Below are positions 1,725 through 10,814 of a stretch of 39,906 bases of DNA, piece after piece (positions within the stretch are counted from its first letter, which is position 1; every line of letters begins with the position of its first letter). The translations under genes were made by a program, and so were the position numbers. The notes beneath the pieces were generated by a model. That model did not search any database and was not told the DNA's origin. It was given only the letters and a program-made list of their open reading frames with translations. This stretch comes from a virus. Its lineage: Duplodnaviria > Caudoviricetes. The stretch covers positions 1 to 39,906 of IMG/VR virus record IMGVR_UViG_3300030107_003716. One strand, written 5' to 3'.

Positions 1725-1746
1725 TTTGTGCCCACTTTGTGCCCAC
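1725..1746 (+). repeat. Tandem 11-bp repeat (TTTGTGCCCAC x2), left arm-type integrase site of attP
   Basis: Exact tandem repeat about 85 bp left of the att core; a matching pair lies at 1950..1971. Confidence 0.7.
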
Positions 1747-1831
1747 TCCAGAGACAAAACTATACCATATGAAGGTATGTAATCCCAAGCTTTATAGAGG
1801 AGAGTCCGCTTTTTAGAGGAGGGAGTATCTA

Positions 1832-1890
1832 CCTGCTAAGCGGGTATACGGTTTAGAGCCGTATCGAGGGTTCGAATCCCTCTCTCTCCA
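1832..1890 (+). mobile_element. attP core: 3' half of tRNA-Ser(GCT)
   Basis: Anticodon loop CTGCTAA, 3' anticodon strand GCGGG, long variable arm ATACGG/CCGTAT, T arm GAGGG-TTCGAAT-CCCTC and acceptor strand TCTCTCC. No matching 5' anticodon strand or D arm. The genome encodes a tyrosine integrase. Confidence 0.85.
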
Positions 1891-1902
1891 CGAGAAATCA
1901 AT

Positions 1903-1933
1903 AAAAAAGGGTCTAAATAATTAGGCCCTTTTT
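1903..1933. terminator. Bidirectional terminator between the att tRNA fragment and the repressor
   Basis: AAAAAAGGGTCTAA-ATAA-TTAGGCCCTTTTT. Confidence 0.75.
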
Positions 1934-1949
1934 AGTTTATTGGATTTGC

Positions 1950-1971
1950 TTTGTGCCCAATTTGTGCCCAC
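1950..1971 (+). repeat. Tandem 11-bp repeat (TTTGTGCCCAA TTTGTGCCCAC), right arm-type site of attP
   Basis: Same motif and orientation as 1725..1746. Confidence 0.7.
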
Positions 1972-7285: not shown

Positions 7286-7312
7286 AAAAAAGGCCCAATT
7301 AAGGGCCTTTTT
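7286..7312. terminator. Bidirectional terminator between convergent operons
   Basis: AAAAAAGGCCC-AATTAA-GGGCCTTTTT. Confidence 0.85.
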
Positions 7313-7336: not shown

Positions 7337-7462
7337 TTATTTTTTTATAAACCAAGTCCATCTATCTTTAGGGAATCCCTTATGATATTCTAACATCTCT
7401 TTAAAATCTGTCCATTCAAGCCGTGTTCCCCCAATATCCCTAGATACATATATTACTTTCAT
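7337..7462 (-). CDS. 41-aa hypothetical protein
   Basis: TAATG coupling to the upstream gene; ends just before the terminator. Confidence 0.45.
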   Translation of the reverse strand: MKVIYVSRDIGGTRLEWTDFKEMLEYHKGFPKDRWTWFIKK

Positions 7463-7686
7463 TACTCACCACCTTCCTGGACCAATTCACTATTAACATG
7501 ATTGTGACAATCCTGGCTAATCTGTTCTAGGTTATCTGTAAAATACTTTTCAAATACCTCACCAAGTAAATGTCCAGGTTGTTTATCCTGGGCCTTAGCA
7601 TGGATACTAAAAGCATTCCATTTTGTTTCAATTGACTTTGCATATATGCGGACCATTTTACCGCCTTTTATTTTTACCACTATCAT
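7462..7686 (-). CDS. Hypothetical protein (possibly ribbon-helix-helix-like)
   Basis: AAAGGAC..ATAATCATG RBS shared with the other operon genes; directly after the integrase. Confidence 0.6.
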   Translation of the reverse strand: MIVVKIKGGKMVRIYAKSIETKWNAFSIHAKAQDKQPGHLLGEVFEKYFTDNLEQISQDCHNHVNSELVQEGGE

Positions 7687-7688
7687 GA

Positions 7689-8831
7689 TTATATCGTCCT
7701 TTCATTTAGTGTTGATTTGGTTTTTGATACCTCACTAGCAATCTGATTTGCTATGTAAGTTTGTGTTACTTTACTGCCAAGCGTATGACCTAGCTGTCTT
7801 TGTACTGAGTCCAATGAATGACCATTGGAAATAAGATGGGTAGCTAATGAATGCCTGAATGAGTACTGGCTTAGCTTTTCGCCTTTGTTTTGTTTAATGC
7901 CCAATTTACGGCATACTTTTTTAAAGGCTACATTAGCATTGTCCTGGTCTTTATCTGAGCCACCTAGGCCCCAAATATCGTCTCCTAATGCCTGAATCCT
8001 ATCGCTGATAGGAGTAGCACTCTGTTTCCCAGTTTTGGCTCTATTGGTTATGATACAAGGAATTATCTCACCATTGTCCCCAATACCATTTAACAAATGC
8101 TTTCTCTTGTTTAAATTCCTAGCATCTACTGGTGATAGGGCGGTATCAATCATGATGGTCCAAAGCGTTCTTGTAAATTCATTTGGAGCATTGTCCACAA
8201 TCAATTCAGCTTGGTCCCTGGTCAATACCTGGTAAGGGGTTTTATCACTACCTGGTTTTTTTAATTTGCCTTTCCTGGCATAGTAATTATCCTTCAGGAT
8301 TTTCTCATTGGTTAACCAGGTGTACAGTGGGTTCAAATAGTTGTGTCGCTTTGTAACTGTTTCGGTCTTATTACCTTGAGCGTACTGGTCTGCATAGAAT
8401 CTATTAATATCAGCAGATGTCAATGCGGCCAGGTCAATCTCACAATCCTTTGCAATTCTCTTATCCTTGGTCCAATCTGATTCCTTGCCAAAGAAAACAA
8501 CAAACGGTTTGATGTTGAACAAGTCCCTTAACCAGGTCCTAGAGCGATTCTTTTCATGTGCGACCCAGTCATCGAATATATCTCTTAGTAGGATTGGCTG
8601 TTGCTCATCACTAGGTACATCTAAAACAATAGGGTCTAAACCATGTTTAAGATTAAAAGCCTTATTTTGAGCCTGGGCGTATCTTTCTTTAATTTGAGTA
8701 ACTGTACATTCACGAGAAGTCCCTAATGGAATCTGCATTCTTTTACCGTTTAAAGTGAACCTATATCTGTAGTCTATATACCCAGCAGACCTGACAATAT
8801 TTCTTAGGTTAGGTAGATTAATCTTCCTCAT
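7689..8831 (-). CDS. int: Tyrosine recombinase / phage integrase
   Basis: N-terminal arm-binding-like beta region (YRYRFTLNGKRMQIPLG); RAKTG, YSFRHS, LGH and TQTY catalytic motifs; start at 8831 after an AAAGGA RBS. Confidence 0.9.
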   Translation of the reverse strand: MRKINLPNLRNIVRSAGYIDYRYRFTLNGKRMQIPLGTSRECTVTQIKERYAQAQNKAFNLKHGLDPIVLDVPSDEQQPILLRDIFDDWVAHEKNRSRTWLRDLFNIKPFVVFFGKESDWTKDKRIAKDCEIDLAALTSADINRFYADQYAQGNKTETVTKRHNYLNPLYTWLTNEKILKDNYYARKGKLKKPGSDKTPYQVLTRDQAELIVDNAPNEFTRTLWTIMIDTALSPVDARNLNKRKHLLNGIGDNGEIIPCIITNRAKTGKQSATPISDRIQALGDDIWGLGGSDKDQDNANVAFKKVCRKLGIKQNKGEKLSQYSFRHSLATHLISNGHSLDSVQRQLGHTLGSKVTQTYIANQIASEVSKTKSTLNERTI

Positions 8832-8852
8832 TTTTTTGTCCTTTCTATTTTT

Positions 8853-8921
8853 GATTTCCATAGATACCCCAGTTGCCCAGGGTATTTCGGCCAGGTATCA
8901 CCTGGCTCTCATCGGTATGGA
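8853..8921 (-). ncRNA. Type I hammerhead ribozyme HHR3 (upstream of the integrase)
   Basis: Minus strand: UCCAUA CCGAUGA G A GCCAGGU-GAU-ACCUGGC C GAAA UACCCUGG-GCAA-CUGGGGUA UC|UAUGGA AAUC; predicted cleavage after AUC, between 8863 and 8862. Confidence 0.85.
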
Positions 8922-9470
8922 TTAGTGACTGCTTATATCAAGTTTTTCCTTATCAAAAAAGTTAAAACCAACTTCACCTTTTATAGAACTTATCTGCTTC
9001 CTTAATTCGTCTATCTTATCCTTCATTTCTTTTACATCCTTAAGTGCAGTACTAACCTTATCGATAGGGAATTCATGTACGGGCCAAGTCTTCTCAACAT
9101 CACCAGGTTTAGTATAGTCCCAGTCAGGTCCTAAGCGAACATATTCAGTAACTTTCTCCACTGCACCATTAGGGTAAGGATAGTATAAAATATCCAATTC
9201 TAAACATACACTCTTAGCATACCAGTGTTTAAAGCGAAATTCATATCCAGCATAGCCACGACTATGAAATACATTTTCAGACTGGCAAACGCCTTCAATA
9301 ATTGTCGCTATTTTGCTTTCCAATTTCTTTAACTGATGTGCCCTTAAAGAGTTGTCTTTCTTTTGCTTCCAGTTCTCTGTGAGCCACTCATTGACTCGCT
9401 TACCTACTGTCTGACAAACTACATGAAGTAGTTGTGTATTCCAGACTGAATTATGGTTAAATAGTATCAT
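8922..9470 (-). CDS. Hypothetical protein (182 aa) flanked by hammerheads
   Basis: AAAGGACAATAATCATG RBS; stop codon abuts HHR3. Confidence 0.8.
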   Translation of the reverse strand: MILFNHNSVWNTQLLHVVCQTVGKRVNEWLTENWKQKKDNSLRAHQLKKLESKIATIIEGVCQSENVFHSRGYAGYEFRFKHWYAKSVCLELDILYYPYPNGAVEKVTEYVRLGPDWDYTKPGDVEKTWPVHEFPIDKVSTALKDVKEMKDKIDELRKQISSIKGEVGFNFFDKEKLDISSH

Positions 9471-9592
9471 GATTATTGTCCTTTCTTGATTGTTATTTGA
9501 TTCAAATATGGTGCCAAACCAGTAACCCCTCTAGCGGCCAATTCTGGACCGTTAGAATTATAACTGTTGATGGTTATTTTTATTACTGTTTT

Positions 9593-9657
9593 CGCTTCCA
9601 TAGAAGCCCCAGGAAGGGGCTTTTCGACCAGGTGCGACCTGGTACTCATCGGTATGG
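9593..9657 (-). ncRNA. Type I hammerhead ribozyme HHR2
   Basis: Minus strand: CCAUA CCGAUGA G U ACCAGGU-CGC-ACCUGGU C GAAA AGCCCC-UUCCU-GGGGCU UC|UAUGG AAGCG; predicted cleavage after UUC, between 9603 and 9602. Confidence 0.85.
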
Positions 9658-10200
9658 TTATTTTAATAGCTTATTAGCTTTTCTAATCTCCATCCTAGCT
9701 AGGGCTTCACGGGCGTATCTGGTAACATAACCATCATCATCAAATGCACCAGGATTACCTTCAACTGGATAGGTGTAATGTATTCCATTAATACCAATAA
9801 CGAATTGAGCCTTAGAATCGTCAGCCCTATCACGCTCAGCTTTTGTTTCTACCTGGTAATCTTTGCCACCTACTACGATAGTTCTATTATGACTACCGCC
9901 TTTTTTAGCAGTGTGATATACTGGTGAGAAACGAGCATAACCAGCTTGTATCTCAGCATTGAGTACCTTTACTTGCCAATCAACAGCTTCTTGCCTTTCC
10001 TCAGTGCAGATTATTTTAGTTTCCTTCTTTGTGAAGCCGTCTCCATCTATCCAAACATAATCCCTTTCTTCTTCGACTTCTTTTTTGTCAAAGCTACCAA
10101 ATTCAGGGGTCCACTTATCACCTGGTAAGGCCCAGCCTGATTTAGTAGCGTTGCTTTCTTCAGTTTTGTGTAAAACTAAGAGAGTGTAATAGTTTTTCAT
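9658..10200 (-). CDS. Hypothetical protein (180 aa) flanked by hammerheads
   Basis: Likely start is ATG 10200 (MKNYY) after AAAGGACAATAATC; the longer ORF-track call runs through HHR1. Confidence 0.8.
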   Translation of the reverse strand: MKNYYTLLVLHKTEESNATKSGWALPGDKWTPEFGSFDKKEVEEERDYVWIDGDGFTKKETKIICTEERQEAVDWQVKVLNAEIQAGYARFSPVYHTAKKGGSHNRTIVVGGKDYQVETKAERDRADDSKAQFVIGINGIHYTYPVEGNPGAFDDDGYVTRYAREALARMEIRKANKLLK

Positions 10201-10227
10201 GATTATTGTCCTTTTCTTGTTTGTTTT

Positions 10228-10286
10228 AGTTTCCATAGACCCGTGGGTTTCGGCCCAGGAACCACCTGGGCCATCATCAGTATGGA
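10228..10286 (-). ncRNA. Type I hammerhead ribozyme HHR1
   Basis: Minus strand: UCCAUA CUGAUGA U GGCCCAGG-UGGUU-CCUGGGCC GAAA CC-CACG-GG UC|UAUGGA AACU; canonical core; cleavage after GUC, between 10238 and 10237. Confidence 0.9.
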
Positions 10287-10288
10287 TG

Positions 10289-10675
10289 TTACTCTTCTTC
10301 AGAACCAAACTCTCTGTTTTTATAATTTTGCACAGCACCATCAAGTACATCTTCTTCCTCAGTGAAGACTACGATTGTATTTTCAAGCTCCTTGCTGTAA
10401 TTGACTTGAGTAACAATGGGCCAGTCACCTGATTTTCTGCTGTATGCATCTGGGTGACTGTAATCAACTAGTCTAAGTGTACCCATCCAGTTCCAGATAG
10501 CTAGTTTTTCTGGGTTCTCAGCTACTTTGTAATTATGGATAAATTTGGCATCGAACCTGAATATGCCCTGGTCGATAGTTTTTAAGACATCATGGTCAAT
10601 AGACTTCTTAATGAACTTCTTCCAAGACTCGGTTGTGATGCTGGTTTCTACTTTGTAATCTGTGATGTAAAACAT
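10289..10675 (-). CDS. Hypothetical protein (128 aa), first gene of the integrase operon
   Basis: ATG 10675 (MFYIT) after AAAGGACAATAAAT. Confidence 0.75.
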   Translation of the reverse strand: MFYITDYKVETSITTESWKKFIKKSIDHDVLKTIDQGIFRFDAKFIHNYKVAENPEKLAIWNWMGTLRLVDYSHPDAYSRKSGDWPIVTQVNYSKELENTIVVFTEEEDVLDGAVQNYKNREFGSEEE

Positions 10676-10786
10676 ATTTATTGTCCTTTCTTGTGCCCAG
10701 AACAAAAGCTAAGTCCTGATATTGCTAGACTTACACACTCTGTGTCTCTCTGGTTCTCTTGGGCGTTGATTATTTTCATGTCCTAT

Positions 10787-10814
10787 GTTATAGTGTAACA
10801 CCTATATGTGTCAA
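10787..10814 (-). promoter_or_regulatory. Sigma70-type promoter of the ribozyme/integrase operon
   Basis: Minus strand TTGACA-16 nt-TATAAC, about 110 nt upstream of the first gene. Confidence 0.7.

What the first reader, a model, noticed from the sequence alone, without database searches (positions are those of the whole stretch)
8853..10286. Ribozyme-punctuated operon: three hammerheads at consecutive gene boundaries, the last in front of the integrase
Seen: three minus-strand type I hammerhead folds (10228..10286, 9593..9657, 8853..8921). Each begins 0-3 nt after a stop codon and is followed by an AAAGGAC RBS. All have the catalytic core (CUGAUGA or CCGAUGA, GAAA, NUC), the same stem I (CCAUA/UAUGG), a shared CCAGG/CCUGG stem II core, and stems III that differ completely in sequence but still pair. 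A single TTGACA/TATAAC promoter at 10787..10814 would transcribe all of them in the coding sense. Established: hammerheads self-cleave to leave 2',3'-cyclic phosphate and 5'-OH ends, and isolated ones are known from phage and bacterial intergenic regions. Inference: the early/lysogeny polycistron processes itself, without protein, into single-gene RNAs. 5'-OH ends resist 5'-monophosphate-dependent decay, so this could set per-gene stability, including that of the integrase mRNA. I know of no characterised system with this arrangement, but could not search the literature.
Basis: partly seen in the sequence, partly recalled or inferred. Interest (0 to 1): 0.95.

Follow-up and report, generated by a model that had tools for sequence, protein, structure and literature searches.

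The report
Hammerhead ribozymes dividing a phage operon
Three hammerhead self-cutting RNA motifs sit at consecutive gene boundaries in a variable operon of an uncultured phage and likely chop its message into separately readable pieces; this layout was described in prophages in 2011, so it is a clean new example, not a new kind of system.

Summary
Three type I hammerhead folds lie on the minus strand, with predicted cuts at 10238/10237, 9603/9602 and 8863/8862; 298 of 300 shuffles gave none. The novelty claim fails: Perreault et al. 2011 describe hammerhead clusters flanking single genes in prophages, near integrases, and showed three arrays cleave. This scan also found the layout on other DNA (24 findings, at least 22 genomes). 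All 16 related operons spanned, the window's included, carry 1-4 hammerheads of two sequence families among changing genes. Only 3 of 16 have one directly before the integrase, so that placement is not a conserved feature. Best reading: protein-free cutting of a variable accessory operon into pieces, each with its own leader; whether this stabilises or destabilises them depends on the unknown host. One twist remains open (about 10%): the AUG one base after the cut is often in frame with the next gene, but copies without that AUG show similar spacing.

The parts
10785..10814 (-). Sigma70-like promoter of the leftward operon (TTGACA, 18 nt, TAACAT), overlapped by a 15-bp palindrome at 10786-10800 that is likely an operator
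   Evidence: 10 of 12; palindrome occurs once in the window; a site within 2 mismatches of the same consensus in 21 of 21 loci tested, consensus drawn from these same loci
10289..10675 (-). ORF A, 128 aa, unknown function; replaced by other genes in most relatives
   Evidence: no PHROG or Pfam family (scanned without its first 3 residues); 54-58% identical relatives in 3 loci
10227..10285 (-). HH1: type I hammerhead, CUGAUGA core plus extra U, 8-pair stem II, short stem III with CACG loop, GUC triplet, predicted cut 10238/10237; pseudoknot 10264-10261 with 10230-10227
9658..10200 (-). ORF B, 180 aa, unknown function; the stem I AUG of HH1 is in frame 12 codons upstream
   Evidence: only a weak PHROG hit of unknown function (E 0.008); 55% identical relative also flanked by hammerheads in L027
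9592..9657 (-). HH2: type I hammerhead, CCGAUGA core, UUC triplet, predicted cut 9603/9602; pseudoknot 9637-9634 with 9595-9592
9473..9601 (-). 42-codon frame opened by the stem I AUG of HH2, ending 2 nt before ORF C; travels with this hammerhead type
   Evidence: 60-63% identical peptide frames in 3 other loci
8922..9470 (-). ORF C, 182 aa, unknown function
   Evidence: one other protein among 26 candidates; no usable Atlas hit
8852..8920 (-). HH3: type I hammerhead, CCGAUGA core, 8-pair stem III with GCAA loop, AUC triplet, predicted cut 8863/8862; pseudoknot 8900-8897 with 8855-8852
7689..8831 (-). Tyrosine integrase, 380 aa; the stem I AUG of HH3 is in frame 10 codons upstream
   Evidence: PHROG 1 E 3.7e-32; PF00589 above cut-off; R, R-H, H and Y columns invariant in 9 of 9 aligned relatives
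7462..7686 (-). 74-aa protein behind the integrase, predicted ribbon-helix-helix; candidate repressor of the operon
   Evidence: strand-helix-helix model, pLDDT 79; Foldseek gives no E <= 0.001, top rows are ribbon-helix-helix proteins at E 1.9-3.4; no Pfam family
7337..7462 (-). 41-codon frame, last of the operon
7286..7312 (.). Likely two-way intrinsic terminator closing the operon (A-run, GGCCC/GGGCC hairpin, T-run)
   Evidence: read by eye; not listed by the scan

Best explanation
Three type I hammerhead folds, each with a small pseudoknot, sit at consecutive gene boundaries of a leftward phage operon and likely cut its one long message into four pieces, each with its own ribosome site. 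Shown in sequence and relatives: cores, stems, a covarying pseudoknot, position 0-6 nt after a stop codon, and 1-4 copies in every related operon spanned. Inferred: transcription from the promoter at 10814-10785 to the terminator near 7290; fast cleavage at cellular Mg2+, helped by the pseudoknot; pieces of about 540, 635, 740 and 1,580 nt. Each upstream piece would end in two hairpins and a cyclic phosphate, and each downstream piece would start with a 5'-OH and a short A-rich leader. The likely benefit is insulation: this operon gains and loses genes often, and a ribozyme-plus-leader unit would let each gene be translated and decay independently of whatever lies upstream. The integrase is a fixed late member of the operon, not the target of the arrangement.
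For: Rarity by chance. Alignment of 21 distinct copies: 98.1% of cells paired, 10 of 15 pairs with changes on both sides, pseudoknot helix 94% paired with 3 of its 4 pairs changed on both sides, 0 of 500 shuffles as high, slid controls at most 44% paired. 16 of 16 operons spanned from operator to integrase carry hammerheads: ten have 1, three 2, two 3, one 4. A second family with a different stem I and stem II stands in the same operon in L035, L040 and L107 (four copies in L107), so cleavage, not one sequence, is what is kept. All copies found in these operons are in the coding sense; 32 of 33 copies start 0-6 nt after a stop codon. Homologous arrays cleave in vitro and in E. coli, and such pseudoknots raise the rate by orders of magnitude (PMC3088659). 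DNA similarity between operons often begins at a hammerhead and runs through the next gene; 9 of 31 internal alignment ends fall at a hammerhead against 2.3 expected; contigs of related phages start or stop matching at 9657-9662 and 8848-8865.
Against: No cleavage assay and no RNA evidence for this phage. Core departures could slow cleavage: C4 in HH2 and HH3, extra U and short stem III in HH1. Four of 21 copies break one inner pseudoknot pair and one copy the outer pair, and one relative has a mismatch at the base of stem III (L012), so selection is not strict everywhere. Most gene boundaries in most relatives have no ribozyme. The pair counts include related sequences, so the shuffle figure is not a probability. 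The breakpoint excess is partly circular, because hammerheads are conserved islands, and phage mosaics break at gene boundaries generally (recalled). The insulation benefit itself is untested here and, per PMC6765202, unproven in bacteria.
Confidence: 0.7

Rival explanations
1. The cut makes a start codon usable: the 3' product begins U-AUG, and ribosomes would initiate there as on a leaderless mRNA, making N-extended forms of ORF B and the integrase and a 42-residue peptide coupled to ORF C.
For: The AUG is in frame and open to the Shine-Dalgarno-led start in 19 of 22 copies, 14 of 17 distinct spacers and 8 of 11 distinct length combinations (binomial p 0.009 against one third, post hoc); in-frame lengths are 27, 30, 33 and 36 nt. 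The five HH2-type copies keep an open frame of at least 41 codons up to the next start. Two loci of a Nitrosopumilus assembly have the same stem I, and there the AUG is the first codon of a 234-aa ORF. An engineered hammerhead-made leaderless virF RNA was translated in E. coli (PMC5101355, section 8).
Against: Control: the 7 copies without this AUG also have spacings divisible by three in 5 of 7 (4 of 6 combinations). L097 has lost the AUG by a compensatory change in stem I, and in L098 it is followed at once by a stop. The second family has no AUG. Outside the clade only 2 of 9 copies are in frame and open. Every downstream gene keeps its own Shine-Dalgarno start. Copies are related, so the counts are not independent. 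A 5' phosphate is reported as needed for leaderless translation in E. coli, and the cut leaves 5'-OH (PMC9031893).
Confidence: 0.1
2. Cleavage is a brake: it opens the downstream pieces to 5' exonuclease decay and uncouples translation, lowering expression of costly accessory genes and of the integrase, as glmS cleavage does in Bacillus.
For: RNase J1 degrades 5'-OH RNA after glmS self-cleavage (PMC3997798). The stop codon abuts stem I, so a terminating ribosome would be expected to disturb folding and tie cleavage to upstream translation (inference).
Against: Host and its nucleases are unknown. Each cut leaves an intact A-rich leader and ribosome site, which fits continued use of the piece. 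Tight packing alone could explain the short stop distance.
Confidence: 0.12
3. The elements matter mainly as DNA: conserved 55-65-bp linkers that allow homologous exchange of accessory genes, with cleavage incidental.
For: Identical hammerhead bodies precede different genes in different phages; alignment ends cluster at them; one contig joins HH3-like and HH2-like sides with a different stem III between (table 5c).
Against: Compensatory changes in stems I, II and the pseudoknot lower DNA identity while keeping the RNA fold; a second, dissimilar family fills the same role.
Confidence: 0.04
4. Pieces bounded by two hammerheads re-pair through the shared stem I and ligate into gene-sized circles, or skip genes by splicing.
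For: Stem I is identical in all three, so each inner piece can refold a full hammerhead from its own ends. In L042 and L060 the hybrid would keep its pseudoknot (read, 29 sequences).
Against: In the window both hybrids keep only 2 of 4 pseudoknot pairs (HH1 tail with HH2 loop, HH2 tail with HH3 loop; read). Ten of 16 operons have a single hammerhead. Perreault et al. looked for circles and spliced products and found none.
Confidence: 0.04

Closest known systems
Clustered prophage hammerheads of Perreault et al. 2011 (Clostridium scindens, Azorhizobium caulinodans, Agrobacterium tumefaciens triple array around ardA; PMC3088659)
   Same: Several hammerheads flank single genes or short blocks whose identity is not constant; integrase genes nearby; proposed to cut long phage transcripts into operon- or gene-length mRNAs; pseudoknot between stems I and II.
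   Different: Free uncultured phage of unknown host rather than an annotated prophage; flanked genes have no family (no ardA); all three copies are one type I family that Rfam 15 does not call. Whether this family was among that paper's 860 environmental type I hits could not be seen, because the supplement is cut before its alignments.
Type I hammerhead with pseudoknot (Perreault 2011, Figure 2B and S4)
   Same: Open stem I, closed stems II and III, consensus core, base-paired tertiary contact; about 40% of their examples use one.
   Different: Core variants C4 and an extra base after A9. Precedents exist in viroids: titles seen in reference lists; the exact positions are recalled, not read.
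HHphage of haloviruses HF1/HF2
   Same: Hammerhead just upstream of a gene start, with a mapped 5' end near the cut.
   Different: Single, salt-dependent variant in an archaeal virus, 13 nt from the start codon; here an array with 20-31 nt between stem I and the start.
glmS ribozyme
   Same: Self-cleavage in a bacterial leader leaves a 5'-OH mRNA.
   Different: Metabolite-triggered, one gene, unrelated fold; no sign of a ligand-binding part here.

Membership tests
Hammerhead ribozyme, type I | Core C3-N-G5-A6-N-G8-A9, G12-A13-A14-A15.1 and U16.1-H17 around a three-way junction | tested here: met
   position 4 is C in HH2 and HH3, and HH1 has an extra U after A9
Hammerhead ribozyme, type I | Stem I open, stems II and III closed by loops | tested here: met
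Hammerhead ribozyme, type I | Stems supported by compensatory change | tested here: met
   for stems I, II and pseudoknot in 21 copies; stem III varies in length and was checked per copy, not in the pair count
Hammerhead ribozyme, type I | [quoted passage not shown] | tested here: met
   4-pair loop II/tail pseudoknot, 94% of cells paired
Hammerhead ribozyme, type I | Self-cleavage after H17 | not testable with these tools
   no assay possible
Rfam hammerhead families (release 15) | Score at or above the gathering threshold | tested here: not met
   best 31.4 bits against 56.3 for RAGATH-1-hammerhead; 0 matches in 12 related loci
Clustered prophage hammerheads (Perreault 2011) | Two or more hammerheads close together, flanking single genes or short blocks in the coding sense | tested here: met
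Clustered prophage hammerheads (Perreault 2011) | Flanked genes not constant | tested here: met
Clustered prophage hammerheads (Perreault 2011) | Temperate phage context, integrase nearby | tested here: met
   integrase, repressor, terminase, portal, capsid; attP-like tRNA half
Clustered prophage hammerheads (Perreault 2011) | All ribozymes cleave a long transcript | not testable with these tools
   needs in vitro transcription or host RNA
Ribozyme-made leaderless mRNA | AUG at the cut required and kept in frame in all copies | tested here: not met
   7 of 33 copies lack it and 3 of 22 are out of frame

The most novel reading that the evidence does not exclude
In this phage clade the hammerhead cut is itself a translation switch: it frees a U-AUG end from stem I, ribosomes start there without a leader, and so cleavage turns on N-extended forms of the integrase and ORF B and a short peptide that delivers ribosomes to ORF C. 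This would be a natural ribozyme that makes leaderless mRNA in a bacterial virus, paralleling the archaeal case seen in L074/L084.
Probability: 0.1. Interest if true: 0.7.

Novelty: new member of a known kind. Interest (0 to 1): 0.3.

Why it matters
What hammerheads do in phages has been open since 2011 (PMC6765202; PMC6155905). This locus does not answer it, but the clade is a tidy natural panel: one operon with fixed ends, 1-4 ribozymes of two families, and swapped genes. It also gives a type I family with a covarying pseudoknot that Rfam misses. The unknown host and lack of RNA data limit direct testing to in vitro work and stand-in hosts. If the stem I AUG proved to be a real start, it would be a new way for a ribozyme to control translation.

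Tried and rejected
Expression: no RNA holder listed among 11 runs; the 4 runs laid were DNA contigs, one possibly the source of the window. Function of ORFs A-C: nothing from PHROGs, Pfam, homologue search or Atlas; the Atlas query for ORF B did not complete. A second ribozyme or conserved fold in the 125 nt after HH2: the five copies fold differently and Rfam has nothing there; rejected. Further or degenerate hammerheads in the window: none. Integrase-specific control: rejected on 3 of 16. Leaderless AUG at the operon's own start: an AUG lies 7-9 nt after the operator in 7 of 21 loci, in mixed frames (the script's start pick for the window was the TTG at 10705, the likely start is ATG 10675); not a conserved feature. 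Literature: searches listed no later paper that settles the function; searches listed none on natural ribozyme-made leaderless mRNA in phages. The library is open-access only, so this is not proof of absence. Rows dropped before counts: duplicate contigs, L047 (integrase 100% identical to the window's, same layout), and loci too short to span the operon; the script missed the copy in L046 and one at a contig end in L088.

Full report
Observation. The minus strand holds three type I hammerhead folds at 10285-10233, 9657-9598 and 8920-8858. A descriptor requiring the core, three stems and a UH triplet finds only these in the window, with C17 at 10238, 9603 and 8863, and found 0 in 298 and 1 in 2 of 300 shuffles. 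Each folds as predicted, with z-scores of -2.4 to -3.7. Rfam does not call them.

Setting. The window is a 39,906-base virus record rated complete, with repressor, replication genes, integrase, terminase, portal and capsid genes. The best-matching sequencing run is labelled marine metagenome and may be the source of the window. The ribozymes lie in a leftward operon between the small terminase gene and the replication genes: promoter-like site 10814-10785, ORF A, HH1, ORF B, HH2, a 42-codon frame, ORF C, HH3, integrase, a 74-aa protein, a 41-codon frame, and a terminator-like hairpin at 7286-7312. ORFs A-C have no known family. The 74-aa protein models as strand-helix-helix and its nearest, weak, structural neighbours are ribbon-helix-helix repressors. 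A 15-bp palindrome overlaps the -10 box in 21 of 21 loci tested (the consensus came from these loci), so the operon is likely repressible; which protein binds is untested.

Relatives. Pattern and protein scans gave a clade with 81-91% identical terminase. After dropping duplicates and short loci, 16 operons, the window's included, could be followed from operator to integrase. All 16 carry hammerheads: ten have one, three have two, two have three and one has four. The genes between them change. L035, L040 and L107 use a second type I family with another stem I. In 21 distinct copies of the window's family, 98.1% of cells pair, 10 of 15 pairs change on both sides, and the pseudoknot is 94% paired with 3 of 4 pairs changed on both sides; slid controls reach at most 44%. 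Relatedness inflates the shuffle contrast, but the three copies in the window already differ at the pseudoknot and still pair. In 32 of 33 copies stem I starts 0-6 nt after a stop codon.

Modularity. Long DNA matches between operons often start at a hammerhead and continue through the next gene (L041/L060, L033/L042, L033/window); 9 of 31 internal ends fall at a hammerhead against 2.3 expected. Contigs of related phages start or stop matching at the edges of HH2, HH3 and the promoter. This is partly circular, since hammerheads are conserved islands, but it fits ribozyme, leader and gene moving as a unit.

Mechanism. Most likely (0.7) the ribozymes cleave and divide one transcript into about 540, 635, 740 and 1,580 nt pieces (sizes, start site estimated). 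Each downstream piece would keep an A-rich leader and ribosome site, so genes in a fast-changing operon would be read and degraded independently of their neighbours. Folds, positions, covariation and distribution are shown; transcription, cleavage and benefit are inferred. Whether a 5'-OH end protects or exposes the RNA depends on the host: RNase J1 degrades such ends (PMC3997798, passages), and the host was not found.

The AUG lead. The 3' product of the window's family starts U-AUG. That AUG is in frame and open to the next gene in 19 of 22 copies and 8 of 11 distinct length combinations (p 0.009, post hoc), and opens a frame of 41 codons or more in the five HH2-type copies. Against it: copies without the AUG show spacings divisible by three in 5 of 7, L097 lost the AUG by a compensatory change, L098 has AUG-stop, and only 2 of 9 copies outside the clade are in frame and open. 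Papers point both ways: a 5' phosphate is reported as needed (PMC9031893, passages), yet a hammerhead-made leaderless RNA was translated in E. coli (PMC5101355, section 8). I give this 0.1.

Comparison with what is known. Perreault et al. 2011 (PMC3088659; I read parts 2 and 3 of 8, further passages, and the text of Figure S6; the data supplement is cut before its alignments) report hammerheads flanking single genes or short blocks in prophages with inconstant gene identity, many near integrase genes, propose processing into gene-length mRNAs, show cleavage of three tandem arrays in vitro and one in E. coli, found no circles or spliced products, and show pseudoknots are common and needed for speed. 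Weinberg et al. 2019 (PMC6765202, passages) and de la Pena 2017 (PMC6155905, passages) state that the role is still unproven. Precedents for C4 and for an extra core base come from viroid papers whose titles I saw in reference lists; their details are recalled. PMC13481778 (passages) and PMC3376415 (passages) added nothing decisive. This scan has noted the same layout in at least 22 other genomes.

Verdict. Real and well supported as RNA structure; a new member of a known kind. Its value is as a comparative panel and as a family missing from Rfam. Interest 0.3.

Noticed in passing
window 1726-1971: Likely attP: the 3' half of a tRNA-Ser(GCT)-like gene (1833-1892, from the anticodon loop on), flanked on both sides by paired TTGTGCCCA repeats that look like integrase arm sites. 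It lies beside the repressor, 5.8 kb from the integrase gene (identification by eye).
   Followed up: partly
window 10786-10800 and 20 related loci: 15-bp palindrome over the -10 box of the operon's promoter, conserved across the clade; the operon's late gene 7462-7686 is a candidate ribbon-helix-helix repressor.
   Followed up: partly
L074 and L084, 2300-3046 (-): Two loci of a Nitrosopumilus assembly where a type I hammerhead ends one base before the ATG of a 234-aa ORF with a hydrophobic N-terminus.
   Followed up: partly
L107, operon upstream of the terminase: A complete-length relative with four hammerheads of a second family at four gene boundaries.
   Followed up: partly
window 10678-10779 (-): A 33-codon frame starts at the estimated transcription start and stops 2 nt before ORF A, mirroring the 42-codon frame after HH2; an AUG at this place is seen in 7 of 21 loci, in mixed frames.
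   Followed up: partly
L044:3383-3452, L043:3536-3604, L012:1455-1523: Variant copies: A at core position 7 with an extra base in stem II, a UUA triplet, and a mismatch at the base of stem III.
   Followed up: no
L069, L071, L076, L083, L019, L003: Well-formed type I hammerheads with the same stem I in unrelated genomes and phages, two with longer loop II/tail pseudoknots.
   Followed up: no
L005/L028, 271-aa protein before the hammerhead: Looks like a fusion: N-terminal 78 residues resemble ORF B, the rest resembles the family to which ORF C is distantly related.
   Followed up: no
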